Below the pieces are notes generated by a model. That model saw only the letters and a program-made list of their open reading frames with translations. It was not told the origin of the DNA and searched no databases. Source: an uncultured virus (IMG/VR IMGVR_UViG_3300009194_000004) (lineage: Duplodnaviria; Heunggongvirae; Uroviricota; Caudoviricetes). From it: a stretch of DNA of 20,000 nucleotides. The stretch spans positions 111,439 to 131,438 of IMG/VR virus record IMGVR_UViG_3300009194_000004, one strand, 5' to 3'. How positions within the stretch are numbered: position 1 is the stretch's first letter; each line of letters opens with the position of its first letter. Below are positions 1 to 11,855 of the stretch, one piece after another. The position numbers and the translations under genes were made by a program.

Positions 1-750
1 GTCTTTATAGGTTATTGCCGGGTCGAAAAACCGCTTAACCTCAGGCTGATTAAGTTGGTACTCGATATCATTTCGATCAAAATTAATCGGCAGACCAAGT
101 GTTTTCTTCAACCTAAACCCATTGTAGAAAGCCGCCATTCGACGCTTAACAAAATCCCTAGCGCAGGATATCCACAACATGTGTTCAATTTTCTTAGAAA
201 GTTGATCTACATGCGGGTCAGCGTCGTCAAAATCCACACTTAAGGAGTGAGCCAAGAGTGTTTCATAGCTCAGGTGTTTTTTGAGTTCCGAACAATACCC
301 ACTACCATGTTTCGAACCCGCGTAAAAGCGTTTCGTGTCGTCCAGTGTTGGAGCCGGAAGCTGGTCAGCGTAATGATCGTAAGCAAACCCCCTAACTCGA
401 ACAAAACGATGGTGTATGTAGAAGGTCCTCAGGATTGCGTGGATGATTTCCACCGGCATCTCAGGATACACCGCTCGATAGTGGGTCACCACTAGCTGGT
501 ACATGTCGTCAATGTCCAACATTAACCACACGTCGCCTTCAGTAAGAATCAATGTTTCCATGAATGTAGGTAGGTCGCCAAAAGCATCCAACGCTTCTTC
601 GAGGTTGGTGAATTCCATGAGTCCTTCGGGATGGAATTCATTTTGAGTATGCGTACGGTCGTCCAGATAAATGTACGAGTCGGTTGGTTGTTTCAGGTCA
701 ACGCTCGTAAATGCAAAGTCCGCCCGGACGTCATCAATTAAGTGCAGCAT
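1..750 (-). CDS. Hypothetical protein, 3'-truncated by the window edge (>=250 aa); paralog of 753..1802
   Basis: Translated by hand, not in the ORF track. ATG at 750, 2 nt after the stop of 753..1802, open to base 1: MLHLIDDVRADFAFTSVDLKQPTDSYIYLDD...LMEFTNLEEALDAFGDLPTFMETLI...LKKHLSYETLLAHS...DPHVDQLSKKIEHMLW...GFRLKKTLGLPI. Colinear blocks match the neighbouring protein. Confidence 0.85.
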   Translation of the reverse strand, partial: MLHLIDDVRADFAFTSVDLKQPTDSYIYLDDRTHTQNEFHPEGLMEFTNLEEALDAFGDLPTFMETLILTEGDVWLMLDIDDMYQLVVTHYRAVYPEMPVEIIHAILRTFYIHHRFVRVRGFAYDHYADQLPAPTLDDTKRFYAGSKHGSGYCSELKKHLSYETLLAHSLSVDFDDADPHVDQLSKKIEHMLWISCARDFVKRRMAAFYNGFRLKKTLGLPINFDRNDIEYQLNQPEVKRFFDPAITYKD

Positions 751-752
751 GG

Positions 753-1802
753 TTATGTTTCCTTTGTTGGGGACAGGACCATATCTGAAATCTTTACAGG
801 CGTGACTGAATGCAGGTAACTGAATATAAGGGAGCCTGTTCCCCATAATGCATCGTCGATACCGAAGAATGCACTCCACGGACGCTTCCGGTCGGCGTCA
901 ATCAGCTCGATGAATTCGTCGTGTGTGATCTCATGGTCCTTCAAGAAGAAGCTAACGGCGAGCTCCTTGAAGTCCTCTACAATGTTATTGCGTTTGTTGT
1001 TAACGCTAATAGCGTGGTGGATTTTCTGGGCGTTAGCTGCAGTTATCTCATTAAGTGATTCATCAAACCCCAGCGCTTCATCCAGCTTTGAGATTTGTTC
1101 CTCGATGTCGTCCGCCAGCGGATCGATATCTAGGTCTAGGTTTTTCTTTAGACCGAAGATTCCTAATAACAGCCTACGGCGCCATGTGGTGTAGTCAGTC
1201 ACCAACATTTGCCACAACAACGCTTCCATCCGTCGTCTAAAACAGATGACATAAGGATCTGACTCAGAATAGTTACACGCATGTGCGTGAACCATAAGGT
1301 ATTCAATAGAAACGTTCTCTTTTACCAAATCGGAGAACTCACCATTTACTCCCGCCTCTTCGTACCAAATGCGCGTCTGCATTGGTGTCGGGACTGTAAG
1401 TCCGAGTCTACCCTCACGATTAATGCTCGCGCGGGTGGAAAGGCGAATCTGGCTGTATTTTTGGTCGATCGTCACCATTCTCAAGAACCGATGTGTGTTC
1501 TCAAGCGTGATGTTTGGAAAAATACCACGCAAGAAATGAACGTAAAAACGGTTTAGATCTTGCTCGTCGATGAACGCCGTGACATCACGACCACTGTGAA
1601 TAATGGATTCGATGAATCCATTTATACCACCAGGGGCGTCTATAAGCACATCAAGATTGGGGTACTTCATCAGCGGAGTTGCGTCTTGAGAAAAAGCCTT
1701 AGACCCGAGGGAGTTAATATAAACAATATCTTTCGGGTTGGCCCTAGCGTTCGGACTGGAAAATGAGTAATCAAGCGACAGGCCGTTTGTCAACCGGATC
1801 AT
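753..1802 (-). CDS. Hypothetical protein (349 aa) in the radical SAM cassette
   Basis: Long ORF; ATGA start/stop overlap with the 180-aa gene at 1799-1802; no catalytic motif recognised; paralogous to 1..750. Confidence 0.85.
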   Translation of the reverse strand: MIRLTNGLSLDYSFSSPNARANPKDIVYINSLGSKAFSQDATPLMKYPNLDVLIDAPGGINGFIESIIHSGRDVTAFIDEQDLNRFYVHFLRGIFPNITLENTHRFLRMVTIDQKYSQIRLSTRASINREGRLGLTVPTPMQTRIWYEEAGVNGEFSDLVKENVSIEYLMVHAHACNYSESDPYVICFRRRMEALLWQMLVTDYTTWRRRLLLGIFGLKKNLDLDIDPLADDIEEQISKLDEALGFDESLNEITAANAQKIHHAISVNNKRNNIVEDFKELAVSFFLKDHEITHDEFIELIDADRKRPWSAFFGIDDALWGTGSLIFSYLHSVTPVKISDMVLSPTKET

Positions 1803-2341
1803 CGTCTGCTCCTTGAACCGTGGCAGTTGCTGTGGCAGTTCGAATGACAGACTGACAGATCCACGATCTCACCGTTGTGAATGCGTTCATATAACTCGTT
1901 CTGAACTGTTTGGATCAGGTCGGATAGATTTGACCGATCAGCATCGTTTCGAGTGGAAATGTAGGTCGGGTCACCACCGGCGGTTTTCAAGCTGTGTATG
2001 CTCTGGCGGTAATTATTGTTCAGTGCTGCAATACCCCACTCTTTATCGTGATCGCCGTTTGTGTAATTACTGCCAGAATAATGACGCGCGGTGTAAACCT
2101 TGCGCATTGAAGTACAACGTTCCGCTTCGGCTTTGATCACGTCAACAACGTTACTTGCATCGACATCTCCGGTGTTTGCATCAGTACCCCTATCAAAATG
2201 AGACAGTTCCACCAGCGGACTTTGGTCCATGTACTTGTCGTCCCGGGCAGAACCCTTCCACCATTTCGCTTGGTCCTTGGCGTACTGGTTGATGTTGTTA
2301 TTGACAGCCGCGTGAAAATCACTCCGTTTTAAATCAGCCAT
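1799..2341 (-). CDS. 180-aa protein with C-terminal CHSNCHSNCHGSRSRR motif; putative radical SAM substrate or virion accessory protein
   Basis: Starts 1 nt after the rSAM stop and overlaps the next gene by ATGA. Three Cys-His units at 4-residue spacing at the extreme C-terminus. Function is inferred. Confidence 0.8.
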   Translation of the reverse strand: MADLKRSDFHAAVNNNINQYAKDQAKWWKGSARDDKYMDQSPLVELSHFDRGTDANTGDVDASNVVDVIKAEAERCTSMRKVYTARHYSGSNYTNGDHDKEWGIAALNNNYRQSIHSLKTAGGDPTYISTRNDADRSNLSDLIQTVQNELYERIHNGEIVDLSVCHSNCHSNCHGSRSRR

Positions 2342-2342
2342 G

Positions 2343-3479
2343 TTAGAATACCTCTACAACTGGGATCGTTTTTGTATCCGAAGTCAGCGCGGACGGCTCT
2401 TTCTCATACCGAATGCCTTCCTCACCCATGAACCCATTGAGTACTTCCTTCAGGATGTCCTGATCGGTGTTTTTCATGGACCGCATCATGGACTTTGGAG
2501 AAGCACAGATATCGCCCTGCCAATTAAGTTGATGACAATCGCCATTACAAACGTCAAATACGTCACAACTGAAACAGACTTCGTTCAGGGTGCTTTCGGT
2601 TGCAATGTTACATCCACGTCCTTCCGAGAACACGATATCTGAAATGGTTTGATCCAAGGTTCCGAACGTCGTCTCAGGGGCGCCATTGGGACACCCGCCA
2701 ATGGTACCATCGGCGTTCAGGGTTAGAATCTTCTGTTCGCATTCCCGACTACGGCACCCGGAAAACGTATTGAATACAGTGCTGGTCAGCAGGCTTTCTA
2801 GGAACATGTTCAAGATCTTTTCGTACGCCTTGTGTTCCAACGTCTGTTCCCACATTTTCAAGAACCACGCGTCCAACTCCAGATTGGTAGGAAAAATACC
2901 GGTGTTCTCACGGGCGTTACCATTCTCAGTGATGCGTTCAAAGTTGATGAACGCAACCCCAAGGTTGGTCATCTTGTTGATCAAGTCGATTGGCTCAACA
3001 TCCATCAGGTCTTTGGACACGCAAATCATGACCGTGACGTCTATGCCTTCGGCCACTAACTTACGGACGTTTTCTTCCCACAGCGCTTCTTGGTTGCGGT
3101 TCCCTTGCCAACGGATGCTGTAATCCCAGGATGTCCCGATTGAAGTTCCTGCCACTTTCTTCAGAAACGCCAGTCGGTCATCTGTCAGCTTATACGTCAG
3201 GTTGGTTTGAATACCCCATGTCAAGTTATCCCAGAGTCCATCCAGCTCATCGTAAACCTTTTCCATTTTGTCCAGCGGGCAGAGCATCGGCTCGCCACCA
3301 TGGAACGAGATGTTGGCGGAACGGAAGGTGGGGAACTGAGCTTTCAGTCGGTGAAAGAAGTCAATGGTGGCATCCGGGTCAAACCAACCCTTCTTCCCGT
3401 TGGTACCACTTGTGAAACAGTGCTGGCAGTTTAACTGGCAAGTTTCGGTAGTTTTCAGGTAGACCATTAAATCACGCAT
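2343..3479 (-). CDS. Radical SAM protein with C-terminal SPASM domain (378 aa)
   Basis: CQLNCQHC (CxxxCxxC), FHGGEP, IQTN, SWD, and a SPASM Cys array CRSREC...DGTIGGC...CFSC-x5-C-x3-C...C. Start moved from 3656 to ATG 3479 because GAGGA precedes it and the longer version crosses a terminator and overlaps the upstream gene. Confidence 0.93.
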   Translation of the reverse strand: MRDLMVYLKTTETCQLNCQHCFTSGTNGKKGWFDPDATIDFFHRLKAQFPTFRSANISFHGGEPMLCPLDKMEKVYDELDGLWDNLTWGIQTNLTYKLTDDRLAFLKKVAGTSIGTSWDYSIRWQGNRNQEALWEENVRKLVAEGIDVTVMICVSKDLMDVEPIDLINKMTNLGVAFINFERITENGNARENTGIFPTNLELDAWFLKMWEQTLEHKAYEKILNMFLESLLTSTVFNTFSGCRSRECEQKILTLNADGTIGGCPNGAPETTFGTLDQTISDIVFSEGRGCNIATESTLNEVCFSCDVFDVCNGDCHQLNWQGDICASPKSMMRSMKNTDQDILKEVLNGFMGEEGIRYEKEPSALTSDTKTIPVVEVF

Positions 3480-3536
3480 GGTACGTCCTCGTTTATTTCT
3501 AATGAATGTCGCTACTGTACAATCATGACCATAAGT

Positions 3537-3570
3537 AAAAAAAGCAGCAGTGGGCTTACACCCACTGTGC
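3537..3570 (-). terminator. Intrinsic terminator at the end of the tail-fibre genes
   Basis: Minus strand GCA-CAGTGGGT-GTAA-GCCCACTG-CTGC-TTTTTTT: 8-bp stem with one G.U pair, GNRA loop containing the TAA stop of 3556..4485, then T7. Confidence 0.8.
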
Positions 3571-4485
3571 CGGCCAAACGACCTTCCAACCACCGTTGAC
3601 GTAGGCTTGCAGTTGATTGTTACGGACCCGCAGACTGGTCTCGTCTGTAGAACCAATTCGCACGTAACGCCCGTCGTGGTGATTCACGTTCGGGTTAGCG
3701 TGGGTGGCAAGTGCGACACCCACGGCGTGTGGTGACATGTACCGGGTTTTGGTGGACATGTCCGCCGCCTGGGTATCCGTGGCCATTTTGTAGTTTTCGA
3801 CGTCCCCCAGTCCCACCTGGGCCTTAGTAACCTTGTGTGGGTTGGTGCCGTCTTCCATGTGGTCGACCAAGCGGTTCTCGACTCGGTTTCGATCTTCGGC
3901 TGCTTCTTCAAACAACATCAACGCGTAGGCACGCGTTTCATCGTGAAGTGCTTGGTCACCAGCCATGATCGCCTGAACAATCCGTTCCAGTTCGGTGACA
4001 ACCGGCTCAAACCCATACAGTTCCCACAAGGCGTGCAGGTGGCCAGCCGCTGGGTACTCGTTAGGCTTGCCGATGATGTTGGCCCACTCCACGGGCCGAT
4101 CTTCTTCAGCCAGTGTGTCGATCACCTGCTGGAGTGCGTCGGTTGAAACTGCAAAGTCTCCACCCACTACCTGGTAATCCAGGAACACACTGGTCGAAAC
4201 ATTGGGGTTAACAACGATGATCGCCCCACAGACTTCCAGACCGCTTCGGGTCGTGGCCCGTTCGTACAGGTAAGTGGCGATATAATCATCGCCCTTACGA
4301 AGCTCTGCACCTGACACATCCCGGAGGACCATGTCGCGGGTGTAGAACCCGCCGTAATTGGGAACCAAGACCCGGTAGTTACCGGTGGTCACGGCGGCGT
4401 CCAGATCGTGTCGCTCGCCCAGGATGCGGTTATCCGGATTCCGGCCCGTCAAATCCAACGGGTATTTGTTAACAATGAGTGACAT
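3556..4485 (-). CDS. Virion structural / tail-fibre-type protein (309 aa) with one phage tail repeat
   Basis: NPHKVTKAQVGLGDVENY repeat (PTR-like), HHDGRY fibre-type motif, C-terminal YVNGGWKVVWPAQWV. N-terminus YPLDLTGRNPDNRILGE is homologous to that of 4502..6148. GGAG RBS. Confidence 0.8.
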   Translation of the reverse strand: MSLIVNKYPLDLTGRNPDNRILGERHDLDAAVTTGNYRVLVPNYGGFYTRDMVLRDVSGAELRKGDDYIATYLYERATTRSGLEVCGAIIVVNPNVSTSVFLDYQVVGGDFAVSTDALQQVIDTLAEEDRPVEWANIIGKPNEYPAAGHLHALWELYGFEPVVTELERIVQAIMAGDQALHDETRAYALMLFEEAAEDRNRVENRLVDHMEDGTNPHKVTKAQVGLGDVENYKMATDTQAADMSTKTRYMSPHAVGVALATHANPNVNHHDGRYVRIGSTDETSLRVRNNQLQAYVNGGWKVVWPAQWV

Positions 4486-4501
4486 TTAGACTTCTCCGAA
4501 G

Positions 4502-6148
4502 TTAGGCTTCAAGTTGGGCGGACGCGTCATCGAATGCCGCAATCAGGGTGTCCGTGACGTCTTGGGCACCGGCACCGACGGTGGGAATCGGTGTCCGACC
4601 ACTTCCACGGGTTGGGTAGTACAGACCAGGATCGGGCAGGAACTGACCTGTCGGTTGACGCACTGGGATGAATGTAATTCCTTCAGCGGGAACGTTGGTC
4701 ACATCCAGTGACAGTTCCATGACCCGCTCAGCGCCGGTACCGGTGATACCCAACATGAAATCCCGCATGGGCGGGATGCCGTTCAGTGTGGTTATGTTTA
4801 CCGTTTCGTTTGTCCAGTCGGCTTCAATACTAACCCACGCTTTACGTCCATCGGGTCCTGGTACGCTACCAAGCATGTGAAGGGGTTCGTCGGTTTCACT
4901 GAGGTGATAAAACGGCAGATGTTCATCGCGTCCGAAACTGTCTCCAGAGGTGAAGTCCCAGGTATACGTTGCGAAATACACAAATTGCGTGTACATGTCG
5001 TCCTTGATGTCACCATACGTCATGTTCTCCAGCATTTGGGAGTTAGCAGCCGTGCCCAACAGGATGTCCTGTTTCAACCCTTCGAGGGTCATCCCAAATG
5101 TCCGGTCGGTGTCGTAAGCGGTACCATCGACCCGGAGGTAATTCTGCAAGATACCGTTGATGGTATCCATGCTGATTGCGCCGATATCCGCAGCGGTAAT
5201 TCCGTGGGGGTTATTGGTGTCACTGAAATGCGGTTCCAGAACCTCGTCCTTGAGGGCTTGGATGACCACCTCTACCAGATACGGGGTCATGTACCGGTCG
5301 TTACGGGTCCCGTCATACGCTTCGCCCGGTGTGGCGATTCCGAAGTTCTGTACTAGCGAAAGACCTACGTCGGCTTTATCAGTACCGTGGGGGTTGTCGG
5401 CGTTCAGGTGTTCGTCAATTTCCCGTTGTACAGCTGCCCCTACAGCAACGTCCGTCGACTTCGGTGACATATAACGGTCACTGCGGAGTCCTTCGGCTGC
5501 CTCGGTCTCGTTGGCCATCGGGAAGTTTTGTACGTACTCCAGCCCCACCTGTTTCTTGGTGACCATGTGAGGGTTGTCCCGACTGTTCATGTGGTCGGTT
5601 ACAGTCCCCGCTTCCGTATCACCCAGTGCACGATTGATATCACCGATGGCTTCAACCACTTCTTCGAAACCGATCAGTTCACCGGTGCCCTGATCGTGTG
5701 GGATCGGTGGGAACAACGCCGGGAGTGTGTCAATCTGACTCCATGCGCGAGTCAATGGGTTGACAGCTTTATTCGACAGCTCTTCCAATACGGCTTGATC
5801 TGAGAAGCCCCAGTGACCCCCGATGGTTTGGTAGGTCATGGACACAATACCACCGATATCGCGACTCAGGAAGCGCAGAGAACCTGCCAGAGCCTTACCG
5901 GTGTTGTTGGAGCCTTCGGGGAAATAGTGACCAAAGAGAAAGTCACGTCCTTCCTTATACAGACGACCAGTTGCTTGGTCACGGATCTCAAACGACTCCA
6001 CGTAAAACGGAGCCGCCTGAGGGATGATGAAATAATAGTCATCCCGGCCAGGGACCTGCAGGGTCTGCAACTCCCCATCGATTTTGTTTGCCGGGTTGGT
6101 ACCGTACGGGTCGAACTCGTACAGTCCCGTGGTGTTTACAGTAGCCAT
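4502..6148 (-). CDS. Virion structural / tail-fibre-type protein (548 aa), phiKZ gp131-like family by recall
   Basis: Repeats NPHMVTKKQVGLEYVQNF, NPHGTDKADVGLSLVQNF and partial NPHGITAADIG; the two full repeats are followed by DRYMSP / DRYMTP. N-terminus YEFDPYGTNPANKIDGE. AAGGAG RBS. Confidence 0.8.
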   Translation of the reverse strand: MATVNTTGLYEFDPYGTNPANKIDGELQTLQVPGRDDYYFIIPQAAPFYVESFEIRDQATGRLYKEGRDFLFGHYFPEGSNNTGKALAGSLRFLSRDIGGIVSMTYQTIGGHWGFSDQAVLEELSNKAVNPLTRAWSQIDTLPALFPPIPHDQGTGELIGFEEVVEAIGDINRALGDTEAGTVTDHMNSRDNPHMVTKKQVGLEYVQNFPMANETEAAEGLRSDRYMSPKSTDVAVGAAVQREIDEHLNADNPHGTDKADVGLSLVQNFGIATPGEAYDGTRNDRYMTPYLVEVVIQALKDEVLEPHFSDTNNPHGITAADIGAISMDTINGILQNYLRVDGTAYDTDRTFGMTLEGLKQDILLGTAANSQMLENMTYGDIKDDMYTQFVYFATYTWDFTSGDSFGRDEHLPFYHLSETDEPLHMLGSVPGPDGRKAWVSIEADWTNETVNITTLNGIPPMRDFMLGITGTGAERVMELSLDVTNVPAEGITFIPVRQPTGQFLPDPGLYYPTRGSGRTPIPTVGAGAQDVTDTLIAAFDDASAQLEA

Positions 6149-6240
6149 GACCTCTCCTTACATGGTGTTTGGGCTGGTAGGCTGATCAATGGTTTGAGAT
6201 CATAAGATTGACGCTTAACGCCTTAAACGAGGACATGCCT

Positions 6241-7488
6241 ATGTACAGTCTACACAGCGCTCATGTGCGGGTGGATCGTCGCAACGACCGTTGGGAGAAG
6301 AAAGACCTTGCCAACACCACTCTGCTTTCTTTGCGTAATGACTACGATGAGATCTGGTTATTCATCGACCATTACAGTTTTGACGCACCCCGAGCGTTGT
6401 ACTTTGGGGACGTCATTCAACAAACGTACGACGACCCTAACGAACTCACACTCACCGAGTGGTTGTCGCAGGTTGGAAACCAAACACTTCCGTTCCGGGC
6501 CACAGTTCCCCGACTCGATCCCAGTTACGTGAAATACGCACACGCTTGGCAACTCGGGTACACATTCACACCGGTGGGCGACCCGGGAACCGTCCAGCAA
6601 GGTGGTAGTCGGTTTGACAAAACCGATCTGAAAGTTTACAAGGAAGGGATGGATAACGACTTTGTCGGTAAACACGCCATTTTCAGTGTAAACGGTTTTC
6701 ACCACATCACCGATTACGGACCGGACGGCGTGTTCGTTGTGGGCGGTAACCATTCATTGCGTCACGCCAACGACAACCAAATCGGTCTATTGTCGTTTGA
6801 GGACATTGGTGAGATCAAATGCGTTCCAATCACCGATGACATGGTCACCGGAAACCAAGGCGACGTACCGCTGCGCAAGGGCGCTTACGTCACCATTCCG
6901 GACCACATCGACATTGAGAACAAAACCACACTGCTCGTCCTGGGTGGTTATCTTCAAGTGCTGGGTAAGACCTACACCCGAGTGAGCGATCGAACGTATC
7001 GTATTCAACTGGAACAATTGAACCTTTTGGAACGGTACTACGACAGTCGTCCGTATTTGGACTTCAGTTCATTGGGTCTGGATGTTAATGACGATAATCC
7101 GACCATGGTAAGTATCGATGAGTTTTTCCAAGACGATACGCTTCGCGCTTACCTAACGCTCCCTCAGAGTTTCTTGATCGTAGTGGACGCCGACAGCTTC
7201 TTCCAAGAACTGGAACCGCTGGAGCGATCGGGGTTGCCGGGTCGGTATTACGCACACACCGACTATCACCCGTATCCCGTGGTCGGCGCGTACGGACGCA
7301 CCTTGGAATACCACACCCTTCAAGAAGACGGTACATTGGTATTGGCAACGGTTCGTAACCAACGCCATAATTACGACTTCTATCGTCAACCGTGGATGAC
7401 TAACGAGCGGGTGGATTCGGGCCGATACCCCGAATGGCCGCATCAAGAAGGAGAGGCATACACCCGTCTGATCGGGGTTGAGAAGTAG
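6241..7488 (+). CDS. Probable virion structural protein (415 aa), divergent from the tail-fibre genes
   Basis: Long ORF; GAGGA 7 nt before ATG 6241 favours this start over TTG 6208. Size and position resemble, from memory, the conserved virion gene beside gp131 in phiKZ-like phages; not verified. Confidence 0.65.
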   Translation: MYSLHSAHVRVDRRNDRWEKKDLANTTLLSLRNDYDEIWLFIDHYSFDAPRALYFGDVIQQTYDDPNELTLTEWLSQVGNQTLPFRATVPRLDPSYVKYAHAWQLGYTFTPVGDPGTVQQGGSRFDKTDLKVYKEGMDNDFVGKHAIFSVNGFHHITDYGPDGVFVVGGNHSLRHANDNQIGLLSFEDIGEIKCVPITDDMVTGNQGDVPLRKGAYVTIPDHIDIENKTTLLVLGGYLQVLGKTYTRVSDRTYRIQLEQLNLLERYYDSRPYLDFSSLGLDVNDDNPTMVSIDEFFQDDTLRAYLTLPQSFLIVVDADSFFQELEPLERSGLPGRYYAHTDYHPYPVVGAYGRTLEYHTLQEDGTLVLATVRNQRHNYDFYRQPWMTNERVDSGRYPEWPHQEGEAYTRLIGVEK

Positions 7489-7493
7489 CGACG

Positions 7494-7528
7494 ACATAAA
7501 GCCCGCCTCGAAGGCGGGCTTTATTATG
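7494..7528. terminator. Bidirectional terminator between convergent genes
   Basis: AAAGCCCGCCT-CGA-AGGCGGGCTTT inverted repeat flanked by CATAA and TTATG, between stops at 7488 (+) and 7538 (-). Confidence 0.85.
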
Positions 7529-7537
7529 CCGTTGGGA

Positions 7538-8221
7538 TCAGTCCTTACCGGAGCTTCCAAAGCCCTTATCGCCACGTTCGGTGACGGTATCGAACTCGTC
7601 CACCCATTGTGGATTCACCGGGTAGCATTTGGTGACCACATACTGCGCCACCCGCTCACCCGGTTGGATTTCCATGACCCGGTGAGTTTCGGTTTCATGA
7701 CGATTCCACAACGCCAGTTTCAGCTCACCTTGGTAGTCGGAGTCAATAACCCCAACCAAGTTACCCAACACCACGCCTTTACACCCCAAGCCACTGCGCG
7801 GTAGGATCAGACCCACAAAGTTAGGATGACCCAGATGCATGGCAACCCCGCTGTGAACCGTTGCCATTTCACCGGGTTGGAGGATCAGTGGTTCTTTACC
7901 GACGTAACGCAGGTCGTACGCTGCGCTCCCCGACGTGGCGTGACCCGACTCTTTGTACCGCCACTTGATCTGAGCGGCGAGTGTCTCGTCCATACCTTCA
8001 AAGGCTTCTTCAACGAAACGGGCTTTTGGGGTGACACACTCCACGTTGATAATTTGGGAATACGGGTTTCCCTCCACCAAGTGTTCGGCGGGGGTGTCCA
8101 ACACGGAAGTCAGACCGGAGGGACGGGGCTTGCGTTTCAGGGTCACCGAGTTTTCATCCTGGTGGACTGTGGTGACTGTCACGGCGTCTTTTTCAGTGAA
8201 TTCATCGTTGTCTTTGGACAT
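7538..8221 (-). CDS. dut: Trimeric dUTPase with N-terminal extension (227 aa)
   Basis: All five motifs in order: GSAAYDL, PRSGLG, GVIDSDYQGE, GERVAQ, RGDKGFGSSG. GAGGA RBS before ATG 8221. Confidence 0.95.
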   Translation of the reverse strand: MSKDNDEFTEKDAVTVTTVHQDENSVTLKRKPRPSGLTSVLDTPAEHLVEGNPYSQIINVECVTPKARFVEEAFEGMDETLAAQIKWRYKESGHATSGSAAYDLRYVGKEPLILQPGEMATVHSGVAMHLGHPNFVGLILPRSGLGCKGVVLGNLVGVIDSDYQGELKLALWNRHETETHRVMEIQPGERVAQYVVTKCYPVNPQWVDEFDTVTERGDKGFGSSGKD

Positions 8222-8232
8222 GGTTCGATTCC

Positions 8233-10722
8233 TCAGGCTATGGTTACGTGTTGGTTGTAGGTTTGTGGGACGGTGATGTTGTTGGGGTCCAAGACACAGA
8301 TCTCGGCTTGGTTGAACGCCCCGTGTACGGATGAGAAGTGGGAGATGTAGAAGATCTGGTTGACCTGACCCAACTCCATCATGCGGTTCAAGAACGGAAT
8401 CAGGTTCTGACGGTGTTGCTCGTCAAAGGTACTGCCAAACTCATCCAGGTACAACGGGTAGTGGGAGATGTTCAAGAACTTCATCACCAGCAGTTTGAAC
8501 GCGAAGTTCACGATGTCCCGTTGGGAACTGGAACCCAAAGCGATGTCTGGGGCCGTGACCGACCCGTTGTTAACGTCCAGTGGGAACTTGTACGTCAGTT
8601 CGTCTTTTTCCATCGGGGACGGCATGACTTTCATTGGGTACGTCCAAATCTCATCACTGACGCTGTTGATGAGTTTCACCACCACCTGCATGAACCCCAT
8701 TAAGTAACGACCAATCAACCCGTCGGTGGGGCCGAGGGCCTTCACCAAGGCCTGATACTCTTTTTGGGCCGTGACGCTCTGGTCGTGTTGGGTTTGTATC
8801 TCACGCAGCACCCCTTCACGGACTTCCATCCGCGATAGCGACTCTTGTTCCTGAGCCAGCTGTATTTGCAAGTGACGGGTCTCTTCGGAAATGGCGTCCT
8901 GATACAGCGACTCCCGGTGCGTGTCCATGTCTTTAAAGAACGCTTCCAAATCCGCAATGGTGCTTTCCATGGCTTCTTTGAACCGAACCCGGTTGCGTTT
9001 GTGCGCGTCCAGTTCTTGAATTTCACGACCCAGTGTGCGTAACCGTTGGGTGGTGTTCTCGATCTCCTGTTCCAGTTGCTTACGGTGACGGTCGGTGCGG
9101 GTCAAAGCGTCCCGATCAATGGCATCCACGTAACGCAAGCGGTGTTCGATCACCTCCACTTCTTGTTTGAGTTCGTTGAGTTTGTTCAGGTTCTGCATGG
9201 CGTTGTTCCAGGACAACGCGTCGTTGAGATAATCCTTGGGCTGGCGGAACATGATTTTGTGCTCAACACACACGTCCCAAACCGGCGCAAACCGTTGGTT
9301 TTCATTCACCAACTTCCGGAACGCCCGAACGTACGTCATGTACTCCTCGAACTTCTCTAGGTACTCCTTGAGGTGTTCCATCTCCTTTTCAATCGCCGCA
9401 ATGCGGGGACCACGTTCATCAATGGCTTGTTGGATGGCTTTGACTTCGGTTGGGTTCACCCCCGGTTGGAAGTCGTGTTCACAGTTCGGGCAATGAACCG
9501 TCTCACACCCTTTGAGTCGTGACAACCGCCGCGCATCAGTGTTCTGATCGTTGTCCAAGGCCAGATGGGTTTTCTCCAAGTGCCGGTACCGCTCGTGGGC
9601 CTCTTTACCTTTCGCACTACTGAAACGCTCGTCGGCGTTGTTCGGGATAGTCTGAATCAAGTTGACCCATTCGTCGAATACTTGTGCCAACGTCTCATGC
9701 GGACGACGGTCTTGGGGAATGTCCACCAGCGGGAAGATGCCTTGATAGTGATCCACGGCTTGTTTGGGTTCGAGCATCTGTTGGCTCAGTGACTTGACCT
9801 GTTGGCGCAGATCGTTGATTTGGGTCTCACTGAGTTCCGTGTCACGACTGGGAGCTTGTTCGTTGAGCTTCTGAAACTCCTCGGTCATGCGTTCCAACAA
9901 CGTTTGCTGGCGACGGTACTCCTCGTTCTGTTCCGCACAGTACGCCTCAAACGCCGTTTCGTCTTCCAGTCCCGGAATGGCGTCCGGCAGCTGATAACGC
10001 AGTAGTTTCTCTGCCCGATCTGTCAGTGTCTTCAGATGATCACCCACCTCCCGTTCGTCCCGGTAATTCGATTGCACTCCGGCCTTGCGCTCTTCAAACA
10101 GCCGATCGAGTTTGGCGGTGAGTTCTTTGATGCGGGTTCGGTGATGACTCAAAACGTTGTCATCCGGTAGATCGTGATTCTCCTGACCCATACGCTTGGT
10201 CAGATGCTTCACCACGCCCTGCTGGTCTCGATGGGCCGTCTTGGCTTTATGGAACACGTTAAAGGCAAACCCCAAATCCACCGGCGCCAGACGGGTGAGC
10301 CACTCCCGACGTTTGGCCGTGCTCAGGGAGGTAAACGGGGTGATGCCCACCAAGAGGTTATGGATCTCTCGGTTAAGACCGAACTCGTCCCACACCAGCT
10401 CCTTCTGAACCGCAAAGGTGTTGCCCTTGTTCAACTCCTCACCGTTCTTGACGAAGGAGTGATGGCCCGACCCGCCAGTGTACTCAGACACCAGTTCGTA
10501 ATTGTCGTTCAAGTTACGCAGTCGCACTTCTTTACGACCACCTTTCGCAAACCCACTGTGGTGTGCAGGGAGCGGGGTAAGTTCTTCCAGGACCGACGAC
10601 TTGCCCGAACCGTTACTGCCGATCAACAACTGCAGGTCCTGTTTCGGTCGGAACTCAAAACGTTGAATGTTCGACAACATCAAACGCTTGTACTTTTCCA
10701 ACAGCAAATAAGTAATGCGCAT
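8233..10722 (-). CDS. sbcC: SbcC/Rad50-like SMC-family ATPase (829 aa)
   Basis: Walker A GSNGSGKSS, long coiled coils, central zinc hook CPNC, degenerate signature LGSSSQR, Walker B/D-loop LYLDEFGSTFD, H-loop YISH. Start set at MRITYLLL (10722), typical of the family's first strand. Confidence 0.9.
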   Translation of the reverse strand: MRITYLLLEKYKRLMLSNIQRFEFRPKQDLQLLIGSNGSGKSSVLEELTPLPAHHSGFAKGGRKEVRLRNLNDNYELVSEYTGGSGHHSFVKNGEELNKGNTFAVQKELVWDEFGLNREIHNLLVGITPFTSLSTAKRREWLTRLAPVDLGFAFNVFHKAKTAHRDQQGVVKHLTKRMGQENHDLPDDNVLSHHRTRIKELTAKLDRLFEERKAGVQSNYRDEREVGDHLKTLTDRAEKLLRYQLPDAIPGLEDETAFEAYCAEQNEEYRRQQTLLERMTEEFQKLNEQAPSRDTELSETQINDLRQQVKSLSQQMLEPKQAVDHYQGIFPLVDIPQDRRPHETLAQVFDEWVNLIQTIPNNADERFSSAKGKEAHERYRHLEKTHLALDNDQNTDARRLSRLKGCETVHCPNCEHDFQPGVNPTEVKAIQQAIDERGPRIAAIEKEMEHLKEYLEKFEEYMTYVRAFRKLVNENQRFAPVWDVCVEHKIMFRQPKDYLNDALSWNNAMQNLNKLNELKQEVEVIEHRLRYVDAIDRDALTRTDRHRKQLEQEIENTTQRLRTLGREIQELDAHKRNRVRFKEAMESTIADLEAFFKDMDTHRESLYQDAISEETRHLQIQLAQEQESLSRMEVREGVLREIQTQHDQSVTAQKEYQALVKALGPTDGLIGRYLMGFMQVVVKLINSVSDEIWTYPMKVMPSPMEKDELTYKFPLDVNNGSVTAPDIALGSSSQRDIVNFAFKLLVMKFLNISHYPLYLDEFGSTFDEQHRQNLIPFLNRMMELGQVNQIFYISHFSSVHGAFNQAEICVLDPNNITVPQTYNQHVTIA

Positions 10723-10796
10723 GTCGTTACTTTCTCTATTTTGGCGGTTAATCTCTATAGGAAAAGACCCCACAGTAGAAGTTCAGGAGACCTCTA

Positions 10797-11855
10797 ATGC
10801 AAATGAGTCAATTACGCCCGTACAGTATCGGCGTGGCTTCGGAAAACAAACCGCTCGACACACGTCACTTGAATGTGACGCCCATTGAAATGTTGTCGGC
10901 CTTGGATGGGGAAATCAAGTTTGACCCTCAGGACGAGGTGGTTCGGGGTGTGGACAGTCGTGGGAACGAATACGAAATCAAGGTAACGATGGACAACTCC
11001 ATCACTGCTGAATGGTACCCCGGGGCGTCCAATCGTGTCACACCGCCTGACATTCGCCGTGGCGAGCTGATCGAGATCTTTCGACTCGCTGATACGGATA
11101 AGTTTTATTGGCGTTGTATGGGCCTCAGAGACGATCTGAGGCGATTGGAAACCGTGATCTGGGCCTTCAATGGCACACCAAACGAAGGCGACAAAGGGAT
11201 CAGTTACGAGACCTCCTATTTCTTTGAGGTGTCCACCCATAAGAAACTGATCACCATGAGCACATCCCAAGCCAATGGGGAACCGTTCCGTTACACCTTC
11301 CAGTTCAATACCGGGGAAGGCAATGTCCTATTGACCGACGACGTTGGTAACCATGTACTGTTGGATAGTGCTAACACCAACATCCACCTAGAAAACATCG
11401 AAGGCACCATGGTGGAGTTGAACAAACAGGACATCAACTTTTACGCCCCCAACGACCTGAACGGCCTGGTTGACAACAACGTCAATCTGAAGGTCGGGAA
11501 CAACATGAACATTGACGTGGTCAAAGACATTAGCATCAAGGCGGGTAAAAACTACACGCTCACCGCTGGGGTGGACATCACGACGAACGCTGGAAAGAAC
11601 AGCACCCACAACGCTGGTATGAACTACAGTGTGACCGCCCAACAGATGGTGAACGTCCTGGCCATGAAAACCGCAACGGTCACGGGCAATGTCAGTGCGT
11701 CCTTAGTCAGTGGTGGGAATGGTCTAAACGTAACCCCCGCAGGGATCACCATGACAGGTGGCACATCAACCATGGGTATGACACCGGCGGGCGTTCAGTT
11801 TGAGTCTCCGGCCATGAACATGAAGGTCGGTTCATTCGATGTAAAACAGGGGTAA
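10797..11855 (+). CDS. Baseplate central spike / puncturing protein (gp5/GpV/VgrG-like, 352 aa)
   Basis: C-terminal 8-residue beta-helix-type repeats (VDNNVNLK VGNNMNID VVKDISIK AGKNYTLT AGVDITTN AGKNSTHN AGMNYSVT); immediately upstream of a PAAR gene; GGAG RBS; no lysozyme domain evident. Confidence 0.8.
   Translation: MQMSQLRPYSIGVASENKPLDTRHLNVTPIEMLSALDGEIKFDPQDEVVRGVDSRGNEYEIKVTMDNSITAEWYPGASNRVTPPDIRRGELIEIFRLADTDKFYWRCMGLRDDLRRLETVIWAFNGTPNEGDKGISYETSYFFEVSTHKKLITMSTSQANGEPFRYTFQFNTGEGNVLLTDDVGNHVLLDSANTNIHLENIEGTMVELNKQDINFYAPNDLNGLVDNNVNLKVGNNMNIDVVKDISIKAGKNYTLTAGVDITTNAGKNSTHNAGMNYSVTAQQMVNVLAMKTATVTGNVSASLVSGGNGLNVTPAGITMTGGTSTMGMTPAGVQFESPAMNMKVGSFDVKQG

What the first reader, a model, noticed from the sequence alone, without database searches (positions are those of the whole stretch)
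1..3479. Phage-encoded radical SAM/SPASM cassette with a Cys/His-repeat substrate candidate, beside the tail-fibre genes
Seen: four tightly packed minus-strand genes (1-nt gap, ATGA overlap, 2-nt gap): rSAM/SPASM enzyme, a 180-aa protein ending in (CHSN)2CHGSRSRR, and two paralogous unknowns, continuing off the window, right after two tail-fibre-type genes. Established: SPASM rSAM enzymes mainly modify peptides or proteins (sacti/ranthipeptide thioethers, triceptide cyclophanes, anSME), and their substrates are usually encoded adjacently. Inference: a RiPP-like post-translational modification system carried by a jumbo phage, either maturing a virion fibre-tip component or producing a modified peptide effector. 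No RRE, peptidase or transporter is visible in the window, which favours modification of a full-length protein. I recall similar motifs in other jumbo phages but know of no biochemical characterisation.
Basis: partly seen in the sequence, partly recalled or inferred. Interest (0 to 1): 0.92.

Follow-up and report, generated by a model that had tools for sequence, protein, structure and literature searches.

The report
Radical-SAM kit for fibre-linked virion protein
Right behind its tail-fibre genes this jumbo phage carries five iron-sulfur "radical SAM" enzymes and helper proteins that most likely rebuild the invariant Cys-His repeat tail of a small virus-particle protein, an untested kind of protein chemistry that also turns up in many other phages and in predatory bacteria.

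Summary
A radical SAM/SPASM gene (2343-3479), a 180-aa gene ending CHSNCHSNCHGSRSRR (1799-2341) and two paralogues follow two tail-fibre genes.

The cassette runs about 9 kb beyond the window's left edge. It adds a third paralogue, four more radical SAM enzymes and a 2OG-Fe(II) oxygenase.

The enzyme-tail link holds in both directions:
- All non-self loci found with the enzyme that had enough downstream DNA carry the tail gene.
- Of 77 viral contigs found by the tail motif alone, 57 have the enzyme at most one gene upstream.
- All 5 tested contigs of 15 "small-type" loci have it 8-12 kb away.
- Only the last 16 residues of the tail protein are invariant.

54 of 64 upstream ORFs bear tail-fibre-type domains. 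The homologue Atu_ph07 gp170 is in the published virion proteome, while none of the cassette's enzymes or other genes (gp165-169, 171-172) is listed. The whole kit also occurs in Bdellovibrionota chromosomes, in two of three examined beside a fibre protein.

Best reading: non-virion enzymes modify the tail of a fibre-associated virion protein. The chemistry is unknown, and I found no paper describing it.

The parts
4502..6148 (-). Tail-fibre-type gene 1 (548 aa)
   Evidence: phrog_13857 'tail protein' E 1e-118 and phrog_2163 'virion structural protein' E 2e-82. It is 77% identical to its counterpart in the nearest relative, L007.
3556..4485 (-). Tail-fibre-type gene 2 (309 aa), ending ...GGWKVVWPAQWV
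   Evidence: phrog_2163 E 1e-96. The same C-terminal W..VWPAQW-type ending recurs in 8 upstream fibre ORFs of other loci.
3538..3567 (-). Terminator-like hairpin plus T-run between fibre gene 2 and the rSAM gene
   Evidence: Consensus scan: 8-bp stem with 5 GC pairs, followed by CTGCTTTTTT (L002 15548-15567 = window 3548-3567). This is a consensus match only, and function is not shown.
2343..3479 (-). rSAM1: radical SAM/SPASM enzyme (378 aa) with three predicted [4Fe-4S] sites and no RRE domain
   Evidence: PF04055 30.7 bits. Best NCBIfam hit is anSME TIGR03942 at 66 bits, against a cut-off of 349. C14/C18/C21 plus C247, C263, C302, C305, C311, C315 and C325 are invariant in 46 homologues. The profile's best PDB hit is anSMEcpe 4K36-39, E 2e-9.
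1799..2341 (-). CH-tail protein (180 aa): folded N-terminal domain plus a C-terminal tail; candidate substrate and virion protein
   Evidence: Alignment A1/A2: apart from M1 and one Gly, only C165, H166, C169, H170, C173, H174, R177, R179 and R180 are invariant. AF2 gives pLDDT 77 with the tail disordered. The homologue Atu_ph07 gp170 is in the virion proteome.
1802..1849 (-). Codons of the invariant tail CHSNCHSNCHGSRSRR (residues 165-180), directly before the stop
   Evidence: 56 of the 61 newly fetched family members (of 62 hits) end in exactly CHxxCHxxCHxxRxRR.
753..1802 (-). Paralogue A (349 aa) of an unknown family: PTP-like alpha/beta N-domain plus helical C-domain, with no catalytic motif
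   Evidence: AF2 pLDDT 88.7. Residues 1-160 resemble dual-specificity phosphatases at Z 5-6.5, but there is no CX5R motif, and only E167 and N323 are nearly invariant. 75 representative relatives were found.
1..750 (-). Paralogue B (345 aa in full; its last 95 codons lie left of the window). The cassette continues leftwards outside the window.
   Evidence: BLASTP against paralogue A, E 4e-31; full gene at L002 11713-12750.

Further left, in L002 coordinates (window coordinate = L002 - 12000):
- paralogue C, 10656-11690
- fam1 protein (250 aa), 9893-10645
- rSAM2, 8956-9960
- rSAM3, 7976-8959
- rSAM4, 6837-7871
- 230-aa unknown, 6152-6844
- 2OG-Fe(II) oxygenase, 5552-6142
- rSAM5, 4630-5529
- 139-aa unknown, 4269-4688

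Best explanation
The window holds the start of an operon-like cassette of about 13 kb, encoded directly behind the tail-fibre genes.

Its centre is a 180-aa protein with a folded but fast-evolving N-terminal domain and a flexible, invariant C-terminal tail, (C-H-x-S/N)x3-R-x-R-R-COOH.

Proposed mechanism:
1. rSAM1 is a SPASM-type radical SAM enzyme with three Fe-S clusters and no leader-binding (RRE) domain. It recognises the tail itself, much as sulfatase maturases recognise a short motif in a full-length protein.
2. It starts radical chemistry on the tail, most likely on its cysteines. Candidates are a thioether cross-link or oxidation of Cys to a thioaldehyde/formylglycine.
3. The other four rSAMs and the 2OG-Fe(II) oxygenase (plus a cupin in relatives) add further steps. 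The non-catalytic paralogues act as helpers.
4. The enzymes stay in the cell. The modified protein joins the virion as a fibre-associated component.

Shown here: the anatomy; the two-way genomic linkage of enzyme and tail; the linkage to fibre genes; and virion presence of a homologue.

Inferred: that the tail is the substrate, which residues are changed, and what the modification does.
For: 1. Enzyme to tail. Four of 4 cultured-phage lineages (Atu_ph07, Phosso, RSL2, pPa_SNUABM_DT01) and 5 of 5 non-self metagenomic loci with enough downstream DNA have a CHxxCHxxCHxxRxRR* gene just after the rSAM1 homologue, in L011 with one gene between.

2. Tail to enzyme. A DNA pattern for the tail alone found at least 123 viral stretches. 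In the 77 distinct contigs fetched:
- 54 have an rSAM1 homologue (at least 150 bits) directly upstream.
- 3 have it one gene away.
- 1 is cut inside it.
- 2 have a divergent rSAM there.

The 15 'small-type' loci instead have an rSAM3-like enzyme next door. All 5 of the 5 tested carry an rSAM1 homologue (410 bits) 8-12 kb away on the same contig.

3. Only the tail is conserved: 9 invariant tail residues, against 26% mean column identity across the alignment. 56 of 61 newly fetched database relatives (of 62 hits) have the exact ending. The tail is predicted to be flexible.

4. rSAM1 has a full SPASM cysteine set and no RRE. Its nearest relatives are protein/peptide maturases such as anSME, DarE and CbpB.

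5. Fibre link. 39 of 64 upstream ORFs hit PHROGs labelled tail, tail fibre or virion structural. A further 15 hit only phrog_22593/6427, which overlap the phrog_19602 tail-fibre C-domain. The fibre families differ between loci.

6. Virion presence. In the Atu_ph07 virion ESI-MS/MS, gp170 (the CH-tail homologue; mass 31.89 kDa matched) has 8 unique peptides and 35% coverage, and is most abundant in the top gel band. The upstream fibre-like gp176 is also present. None of gp165-169 or 171-175 is listed (PMC6102473, Table S5).

7. The same gene families occur together in Bdellovibrionota chromosomes. In 2 of 3 genomes examined they lie beside a protein with a Peptidase_S74 fibre-chaperone domain.
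Against: - No mass or chemical evidence that the tail is modified in any organism.
- rSAM1 is far below every curated family cut-off. The residue aligned with the anSME catalytic Asp (role recalled, not from a call) is an almost invariant Pro.
- In 15 of 77 contigs rSAM1 is not adjacent to the tail gene.
- The N-terminal domain resembles no solved fibre, adhesin or chaperone; best Z is 4.5.
- A terminator-like hairpin separates the fibre genes from the cassette.
- One of three Bdellovibrionota loci has no fibre-type gene nearby.
- The virion evidence comes from one phage with a 296-aa homologue, not from this phage. High-mass gel migration may reflect disulfides, because no reductant is named in the loading buffer.
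Confidence: 0.6

Rival explanations
1. The Cys/His tail is a metal or Fe-S binding site, not a substrate. On this view the 180-aa protein is an unmodified fibre accessory (adhesin or assembly factor) whose tail holds a metal. The rSAMs and oxygenases act on something else, such as the fibre proteins themselves or a surface glycan.
For: Cys and His lie at i, i+4, i+8, which suits metal chelation. Fibre tips of T4-like phages bind metals through His motifs (recalled). Some Bdellovibrionota cassettes include a weak glycosyltransferase-like gene (GT8, E 4e-4, below cut-off). Earlier scan notes describe other phage rSAM arrays linked to sugar enzymes. High-mass migration of gp170 could be disulfide or metal mediated.
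Against: A metal site alone does not explain why one particular SPASM enzyme family travels with the tail in 57 of 77 contigs and in all 5 of 5 tested distant cases. It also does not explain why S/N at unit position 4 and the R-x-R-R end are conserved. No glycosyltransferase lies in this phage's cassette.
Confidence: 0.14
2. A RiPP- or cofactor-type pathway, as for PQQ or mycofactocin. The big N-terminal domain would be a leader or scaffold, the C-terminal 16 residues would be tailored by the enzymes, and the product would be cut off as a small metallophore, cofactor or effector.
For: Several tailoring enzymes surround one short conserved C-terminal core, and SPASM enzymes typically make RiPPs. 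Cys-derived heterocycles next to His would chelate copper, as in thiooxazole metallophores (listings only). Two matrixin-like peptidases lie near one Bdellovibrionota cassette.
Against: No RRE, peptidase or exporter is found in this cassette or in the four cultured-phage cassettes. The N-domain has a conserved fold (BFVD TM 0.56-0.69 to family members). The homologue is a virion protein with 35% coverage. The cassette is tied to fibre genes.
Confidence: 0.1
3. The 180-aa protein is a dedicated redox or Fe-S assembly partner, ferredoxin-like, that feeds electrons or clusters to the five rSAM enzymes.
For: A phage with 5-8 rSAM enzymes needs a reductant. The tail has three Cys and is the only conserved part.
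Against: CxxxCxxxC with obligatory His and a poly-Arg end is not a known ferredoxin motif (own knowledge). The N-domain is highly variable in sequence and length, 124-402 aa, and the gene is often duplicated in tandem. The homologue is packaged in virions while the enzymes are not.
Confidence: 0.05

Closest known systems
Anaerobic sulfatase-maturating enzyme (anSME; TIGR03942; PDB 4K36-4K39)
   Same: It is the best family and best solved-structure match for rSAM1. Shared features: a SPASM domain with a full cysteine set, no RRE, and action on a short motif inside a full-length protein. The last tail unit, C-H-[G/S/T/A]-[S/A/N]-R, resembles the sulfatase motif C/S-x-P/A-x-R (motif recalled; frequencies).
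   Different: The score is 66 bits against a cut-off of 349. The position of the proposed catalytic Asp is Pro. The substrate is a virion-type protein with three Cys-His units at the extreme C-terminus, not a sulfatase. Four more rSAMs and oxygenases accompany it.
CrpC/CrpA of Methanococcus voltae (PMC13692751; abstract seen)
   Same: A SPASM radical SAM enzyme installs thioether (ranthionine) cross-links on an adjacent Cys-rich protein rather than on a short peptide.
   Different: CrpC has a predicted RRE, going by a section heading in the outline; rSAM1 has none. There is no sequence-family link: the related-looking model TIGR04083 scores 36.8 bits against a cut-off of 300, and whether CrpC belongs to that model was not checked. 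The substrate motif differs, and the context is archaeal rather than virion.
HXS antiphage system (HxsA/B/C/D; PMC13128918; abstract and one results section read)
   Same: Several rSAM enzymes mature a ~200-aa protein at a His-x-Ser motif rich in basic residues (+8 Da on SHRSS). The setting is the phage-bacterium conflict at the cell envelope. The phage tail also reads H-x-S in unit 1 (41 of 56) and unit 3 (45 of 56).
   Different: The HxsB and HxsC models score 26 and 27 bits against cut-offs of 370 and 268, and no HxsA-type hit was found for the tail protein. The phage motif has an obligatory Cys before each His and sits at the C-terminus. It is encoded by the phage, with fibre genes.
CXXX-repeat peptide maturase family (TIGR04115)
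   Same: The target carries Cys at a four-residue period, and the enzyme is rSAM/SPASM. rSAM1 aligns over its whole length (residues 8-321).
   Different: The score is 23.6 bits against a cut-off of 350. Here there are only three units, with invariant His and an Arg-rich end, on a folded protein.
Tail-fibre accessory proteins encoded after fibre genes (T4/T2 gp38, Mu/P2 Tfa; recalled)
   Same: A small gene directly downstream of a fibre gene, fast-evolving, and present in particles in at least one relative.
   Different: No sequence or fold similarity was found. None of those proteins is known to need radical SAM enzymes.

Membership tests
Radical SAM superfamily (PF04055) | CxxxCxxC cluster motif and a family HMM score above the cut-off | tested here: met
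   C14-x3-C18-x2-C21 is invariant in 46 sequences. PF04055 scores 30.7 bits against a cut-off of 29.5.
SPASM subfamily (TIGR04085) | Seven-cysteine C-terminal motif for two auxiliary clusters (Cx9-15Gx4C ... Cx2Cx5Cx3C ... C) | tested here: met
   C247, G258-x4-C263, C302-x2-C305-x5-C311-x3-C315 and C325 are all invariant; an eighth Cys (C242 or C244) lies nearby. The HMM score of 26.5 is just under the cut-off of 27.
Anaerobic sulfatase maturase (TIGR03942) | Equivalog score of at least 349 | tested here: not met
   66.4 bits.
Anaerobic sulfatase maturase (TIGR03942) | Catalytic Asp after the third auxiliary-cluster Cys (role recalled from the anSMEcpe literature) | tested here: not met
   The profile alignment puts the anSME 'PCD' opposite 'GCPN'. 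P264 is at least 90% conserved.
Anaerobic sulfatase maturase (TIGR03942) | Substrate motif C/S-x-P/A-x-R in a sulfatase | tested here: inconclusive
   The third unit is C-H-x-x-R with G31/S11/T6/A4 at the P/A position, never P, in 56 tails. The carrier is not a sulfatase (no Pfam hit).
HXS system (HxsA/B/C/D) | HxsB and HxsC equivalog enzymes | tested here: not met
   rSAM1 against HxsB scores 26.2 bits (cut-off 370). rSAM4 against HxsC scores 26.9 bits (cut-off 267.9).
HXS system (HxsA/B/C/D) | HxsA-type effector with His-Xaa-Ser repeats | tested here: not met
   No NCBIfam hit for the 180-aa protein at E <= 0.1. H-x-S is present in some units only and always preceded by Cys.
CXXX-repeat maturase system (TIGR04115) | Equivalog-domain score of at least 350 | tested here: not met
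   23.6 bits.
Classical RiPP cluster | Short precursor with a leader, an RRE/PqqD-like recognition domain, and a leader peptidase and/or exporter | tested here: not met
   No such Pfam or NCBIfam domain in any of the 18 proteins scanned from the fibre genes to the RuvC-like gene. The substrate candidate is 180 aa with a folded domain.
Protein-thioether systems (CrpC/CrpA; QhpD, recalled) | Demonstrated Cys-to-carbon thioether in the adjacent protein | not testable with these tools
   Needs mass spectrometry. Only weak hits to TIGR04083 (36.8 bits) and TIGR03906 (15.5 bits, rSAM2).
Fibre-associated virion protein | Encoded with fibre genes and found in purified particles | tested here: met
   54 of 64 upstream ORFs carry tail-fibre-type domains. 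Atu_ph07 gp170 has 8 peptides and 35% coverage in virions. This was not tested for this phage itself, and the protein's place in the particle is unknown.
PTP/dual-specificity phosphatase (for the paralogues) | HCx5R catalytic loop | tested here: not met
   Fold likeness only, Z 5-6.5 over residues 1-160. There is no conserved Cys or Arg; only E167 and N323 are nearly invariant.

The most novel reading that the evidence does not exclude
Phages and predatory bacteria share an enzymatically forged 'warhead' on their attack fibres. On this reading, the radical SAM cassette converts the Cys-His tail into either a reactive group (such as a formylglycine-type aldehyde) or a cross-linking or metal-loaded group. 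That group would covalently lock the fibre subunits together or capture the prey envelope. It would be the first radical-SAM modification of a virion protein, and a shared chemical device for attacking Gram-negative cells.
Probability: 0.2. Interest if true: 0.92.

Novelty: new variant of a known kind. Interest (0 to 1): 0.8.

Why it matters
Radical SAM maturation of whole proteins is known from only a few cases: sulfatases, quinohemoprotein amine dehydrogenase, and recently CrpA and HxsA. No virion protein is known to be made this way.

This cassette is widespread. It was found in at least 123 viral stretches, 62 protein clusters and 27 Bdellovibrionota loci. It takes up about 10 kb of phage genome and always sits with the host-recognition fibres.

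If the tail is modified, it would:
- define a new substrate motif and probably new enzyme chemistry;
- explain the 'highly unusual' rSAM gene clusters that phage genome papers have noted but not explained;
- point to a chemical step in adsorption or fibre assembly, which is relevant to host range.

The claim is directly testable with cultured phages.

Tried and rejected
- Megablast of window 1-6200 and tblastn of the 180-aa protein against cultured phages: no match. The rSAM did match.
- phmmer of rSAM1 and of the 180-aa protein against PDB sequences: nothing usable.
- Fold searches of the 180-aa model. Foldseek PDB gave nothing at E <= 0.001. VIA wide gave a best Z of 4.5, with weak rows for a phage Milano baseplate protein (Z 4.1) and TssK (Z 3.3), which are too weak to use. 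BFVD returned only the protein's own uncharacterised family.
- ESM Atlas for paralogue A and for the 180-aa protein: chance-level scores.
- Complex prediction of rSAM1 (with SAM and three clusters) against tail residues 136-180: no verdict, score 0.16 against a mark of 0.32, controls not run. This is neither for nor against binding.
- phiRP31 virion mass spectrometry (PMC5468394, Table S3): none of ORF68-76 is listed. It is a shallow gel-band study, and I could not check whether its ORF70 (125 aa) carries the tail.
- tblastn of a small-type tail protein and of its neighbouring rSAM (P0068) against cultured phages: no match.
- Phosphatase function for the paralogues: rejected, no CX5R motif.
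- Membership of rSAM1 in the anSME, DarE, PapB, HxsB or CXXX-repeat families: rejected on curated cut-offs.
- Sigma-70 promoter scan: fewer sites than in shuffles (9 against 16), and phiKZ-like phages use their own polymerases, so it is uninformative.
- Searches for a published description found only remarks that such phages carry many rSAM genes.

Full report
**Observation.**
The minus strand of window 1-6148 encodes, in order of transcription:
- two tail-fibre-type proteins, 4502-6148 (548 aa) and 3556-4485 (309 aa);
- a radical SAM enzyme, 2343-3479;
- a 180-aa protein, 1799-2341;
- a 349-aa protein, 753-1802;
- a further gene that starts at 750 and leaves the window.

The spacings are exactly those reported: a 1-nt gap, an ATGA overlap and a 2-nt gap. 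The fibre genes hit PHROGs 'tail protein' and 'virion structural protein' at E 1e-97 to 1e-119.

The enzyme passes Pfam's Radical_SAM cut-off (30.7 against 29.5 bits). It has C14-x3-C18-x2-C21 and the seven-cysteine SPASM motif. All ten cysteines are invariant in 46 homologues, and an eighth auxiliary Cys lies nearby.

The 180-aa protein ends VCHSNCHSNCHGSRSRR-stop. The DNA pattern of three Cys-His-x-x units occurs once in the window and in none of 200 shuffles. The two unknowns are paralogues (BLASTP E 4e-31).

**Extension beyond the window.**
The window is the last 20 kb of a 131-kb virus record, estimated 44% complete. The flanks encode SbcC, a baseplate protein and internal head proteins, the gene order of phiKZ-like jumbo phages.

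Reading 12 kb to the left (L002) shows that the finding is only the first third of a cassette. Still on the minus strand and tightly packed, it continues with:
- the rest of paralogue B and a third paralogue;
- a 250-aa protein of PHROG 20767 ('fam1');
- three more rSAM genes in a row;
- a 230-aa unknown;
- a PF13759 2OG-Fe(II) oxygenase;
- a fifth rSAM;
- a 139-aa unknown.

It ends at a DUF7208 gene and a RuvC-like gene. No RRE, peptidase or transporter domain was found in any of these proteins.

**Is the tail protein tied to the enzyme?**
tblastn of rSAM1 found 15 cultured-phage records, all jumbo phages of 223-490 kb. In each of the four lineages inspected (Atu_ph07, Phosso, RSL2, pPa_SNUABM_DT01) the gene immediately downstream of the rSAM1 homologue ends in the same tail. 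The proteins are 178-306 aa long and otherwise barely alignable.

Seven IMG/VR loci were found with rSAM1. One is identical to the window (L008) and one is cut 467 bases after the enzyme (L009). The other five all carry one such gene.

An alignment of nine tail proteins has, besides M1 and one Gly, only C165, H166, C169, H170, C173, H174, R177, R179 and R180 invariant.

A word-seeded profile search of 5.8 billion proteins returned 62 unnamed proteins. Of the 61 newly fetched, 56 end in exactly CHxxCHxxCHxxRxRR. The exceptions are one insertion, one probable frameshift and three that lack the Arg end. This search is biased towards the tail by construction.

The unbiased converse test was a scan of viral contigs with a degenerate DNA pattern for the tail alone. 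In the 80 loci fetched (77 distinct contigs):
- 54 have an rSAM1-family gene (at least 150 bits to the family HMM) directly upstream;
- 3 have it one gene away (L021, L040, L062);
- 1 is truncated inside it (L041);
- 2 have a divergent rSAM in that place (L028, L036);
- 2 are otherwise arranged (L043, L046);
- 15 are of a 'small type' (I corrected by eye a script miscount that had put L040 among the adjacent ones).

In the small type, two tandem 124-140-aa tail proteins follow a long fibre gene directly. They are followed by an rSAM with CxxxCxxC that is homologous to this phage's rSAM3 (E 3e-17), and then by relatives of the paralogues and of fam1. All five small-type contigs tested do carry an rSAM1 homologue (410-411 bits), 8-12 kb away.

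Enzyme family and tail motif therefore co-occur essentially without exception, adjacent in three quarters of cases.

**What kind of enzyme-substrate pair?**
rSAM1's best matches are peptide and protein maturases: anSME 66 bits, DarE 57, CbpB 52, DynA 48. All are far below curated cut-offs of 349-650 bits. The best solved structure for the family profile is anSMEcpe (E 2e-9), ahead of an unnamed rSAM, ChlB and CteB.

rSAM1 begins with the radical SAM core and has no RRE. In the partner, nothing but the 16-residue tail (and the hydrophobic residue before it) is conserved. Recognition must therefore rest on the tail itself. This is how anSME treats the sulfatase motif (own knowledge), and unlike leader-guided RiPP enzymes.

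The last unit plus the invariant Arg, C-H-[G31/S11/T6/A4]-[S45/A7/N4]-R, resembles the sulfatase motif C/S-x-P/A-x-R (recalled). However, the residue aligned with the Asp proposed as anSME's base (recalled) is a conserved Pro. Formylglycine chemistry is therefore only one option.

Other options with precedent:
- Cys thioethers, as installed on a whole protein by CrpC (PMC13692751, abstract).
- A change on the His-x-Ser triad, as in HxsA, where rSAM enzymes add +8 Da to SHRSS (PMC13128918, section read).

The AF2 model of the 180-aa protein (56-sequence alignment, pLDDT 77) has three long helices and a beta-hairpin. The start of the tail adds a strand, and the rest is of low confidence, so it is accessible. 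The fold has no clear solved relative. It is shared by family members including Atu_ph07 gp170 (TM 0.56-0.69), so the N-terminal part is a real domain and not a disposable leader.

**The other cassette proteins.**
rSAM2 and rSAM4 also carry SPASM-type ends. rSAM3 and rSAM5 have shorter Cys-rich ends.

The three paralogues belong to a small family of 75 representative clusters. The model of paralogue A is confident (pLDDT 88.7). Its first 160 residues resemble dual-specificity phosphatases at middling Z (5-6.5, about 125-145 residues aligned, rmsd 3.5-4.6). No CX5R loop or any conserved catalytic residue exists; only E167 and N323 are nearly invariant. I read these proteins as non-catalytic helpers, and their role is unknown.

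Between this phage and its nearest relative (L007), the enzymes are better conserved (rSAM1 90%, rSAM2 84%) than the tail protein (76%), the paralogues (65-74%) and fibre 1 (77%).

**Link to fibres and to the virion.**
For 64 of the 77 contigs an upstream ORF could be taken, either at least 230 aa long or, if it ran off the locus edge, at least 150 aa. Of these:
- 39 hit PHROGs labelled tail fibre, tail or virion structural at E <= 1e-8;
- 15 more hit only phrog_22593/6427, unnamed families that in the other proteins overlap the C-terminal domain of phrog_19602 'tail fiber protein';
- 10 hit nothing or something else, including a homing endonuclease, an exonuclease and a cassette gene.

The fibre types differ between loci: phiKZ-like phrog_2163 fibres ending W..VWPAQW, and collagen-like fibres with Peptidase_G2/IMC-type ends ...GIALxDxxxGxVEVKV. 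The association therefore does not come from one inherited gene order.

The published virion proteome of Atu_ph07 (PMC6102473, Supplementary Table S5, read) lists Gp170 with 8 unique peptides and 35% coverage, in gel bands 1-9 and most abundant in band 1. It also lists the fibre-like Gp176 and Gp177. It has no row for Gp165-169 or 171-175, which include the three rSAMs, the cupin and the fam1 protein.

Masses computed from the RefSeq ORFs (31.89, 66.07 and 21.66 kDa) equal those in the table, so the numbering is the same and Gp170 is the tail protein.

Band 1 otherwise holds mainly 75-139-kDa proteins, though two other ~32-36-kDa entries (Gp321, Gp616) also peak there. A 32-kDa protein peaking there behaves like the phage's tail-fibre proteins, which also run above their monomer size. 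No reductant is named in the loading buffer, so disulfides through the tail cysteines would explain this as well as an enzymatic cross-link would.

**Outside phages.**
Earlier notes of this scan, on other genomes, reported the same cassette and mentioned predatory bacteria and a virion counterpart. I treated these as leads and tested them.

The tail pattern occurs in 47 stretches of the species-representative genome collection. Of these, 39 encode a genuine in-frame tail, 4 are low-complexity CH/R runs and 4 are out of frame. Of the 39, 27 carry Bdellovibrionota-type titles (Bdellovibrio, Bacteriovorax, Halobacteriovoraceae and related), several on contigs of 1.3-2.8 Mb. Eighteen of these 27 have an rSAM1 homologue of at least 400 bits within the 8-kb locus. 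All 5 of 5 genomes searched whole have one.

The loci contain the same families as the phage cassette. These include relatives of rSAM3 and rSAM4, fam1, the paralogues, the oxygenase, and the 139-aa and 230-aa unknowns. That judgement rests on N- and C-terminal sequence likeness; only rSAM1 was tested by HMM.

In two of three genomes examined over about 35 kb, the cassette is flanked by a 375-408-aa protein with a Peptidase_S74 'chaperone of endosialidase' domain (E 4e-10 and 1e-13). This is the auto-cleaving C-terminal module of trimeric phage-type fibres. A transposase lies at the end of one of these cassettes.

Phage-like adhesive fibres in Bdellovibrio are known from the literature (recalled, not checked here). 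Phages and predators thus share the kit, in both cases beside fibre-type genes.

**Conclusion and limits.**
The best-supported reading (confidence 0.6) is that non-virion enzymes, led by rSAM1, modify the Cys-His tail of a fibre-associated virion protein.

Shown:
- gene anatomy;
- invariance of the tail;
- two-way co-occurrence of enzyme and tail;
- linkage to fibre genes;
- virion presence of one homologue.

Not shown:
- any modification;
- its chemistry;
- the protein's position in the particle;
- its function.

Rivals: a metal-binding tail with enzymes acting elsewhere (0.14), a released RiPP or cofactor (0.10), and a redox partner (0.05).

Eight full-text searches found no paper that describes the tail motif or assigns a function to these rSAM clusters. 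Phage genome papers only remark on them; for example, eight rSAM genes in a structural cluster are called 'highly unusual' (PMC12390700, passage). Subscription-only papers, among them the original RSL2/RSF1 description, were not searchable.

Noticed in passing
window 3538-3567 (-): A strong terminator-like hairpin (8-bp stem, T-run) sits in the 76-nt gap between fibre gene 2 and rSAM1. It may lower expression of the enzyme cassette relative to the fibre genes.
   Followed up: no
L014, L039, L047, L048, L052, L057, L068, L073, L077, L080, L082, L088, L091, L093 (two genes each); L049 (one gene): A 'small-type' variant: tandem pairs of 124-140-aa tail proteins, with a conserved N-terminal ...QLRTFDKT... 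motif, lie directly behind 350-1050-aa collagen-like fibres ending ...GEVEVKV. rSAM1 is moved 8-12 kb away onto the other strand.
   Followed up: partly
P0051, P0067; L036, L046, L166, L174: Some family members carry four Cys-His-x-x units instead of three. Three proteins (P0052, P0054, P0062) have the three units but end ...CHGSL/I, without the Arg-rich end.
   Followed up: no
L003 5421-6005; L004 5379-5996; L005 7499-7987; L006 7480-7986: In the four cultured relatives a cupin (with an H-x-D...H-type metal motif, seen in the Atu_ph07 and Phosso copies) precedes rSAM1. This phage lacks it at that place and has only the PF13759 oxygenase further down.
   Followed up: no
L056 408-1331: In one RSL2/RSF1-type contig a homing-endonuclease gene (phrog_314, E 1e-39) lies upstream of the rSAM1 gene, where other loci have the tail-fibre gene.
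   Followed up: no
L184 12576-13202; L186 13216-13800; L188 5163-5762: All three Bdellovibrionota loci have a ~200-aa protein ending ...GRHW(I/V)KVK at the cassette border. In two of them it lies next to the Peptidase_S74 fibre protein. It has no family hit.
   Followed up: no
L186 11636-13165: Two tandem matrixin-like (Peptidase_M10) genes lie beside one Bdellovibrionota cassette. They could be a processing protease, but are absent from the phage cassettes.
   Followed up: no
window 7538-8221 (-): The dUTPase has a ~95-residue N-terminal extension with no family hit. It is only 63% identical to the copy in the nearest relative.
   Followed up: no
PMC5468394 Table S2B (phiRP31 ORF68-76): phiRP31 has two YomR-type fibre genes followed by a 125-aa ORF, a 295-aa ORF and three rSAM genes.
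   Followed up: partly
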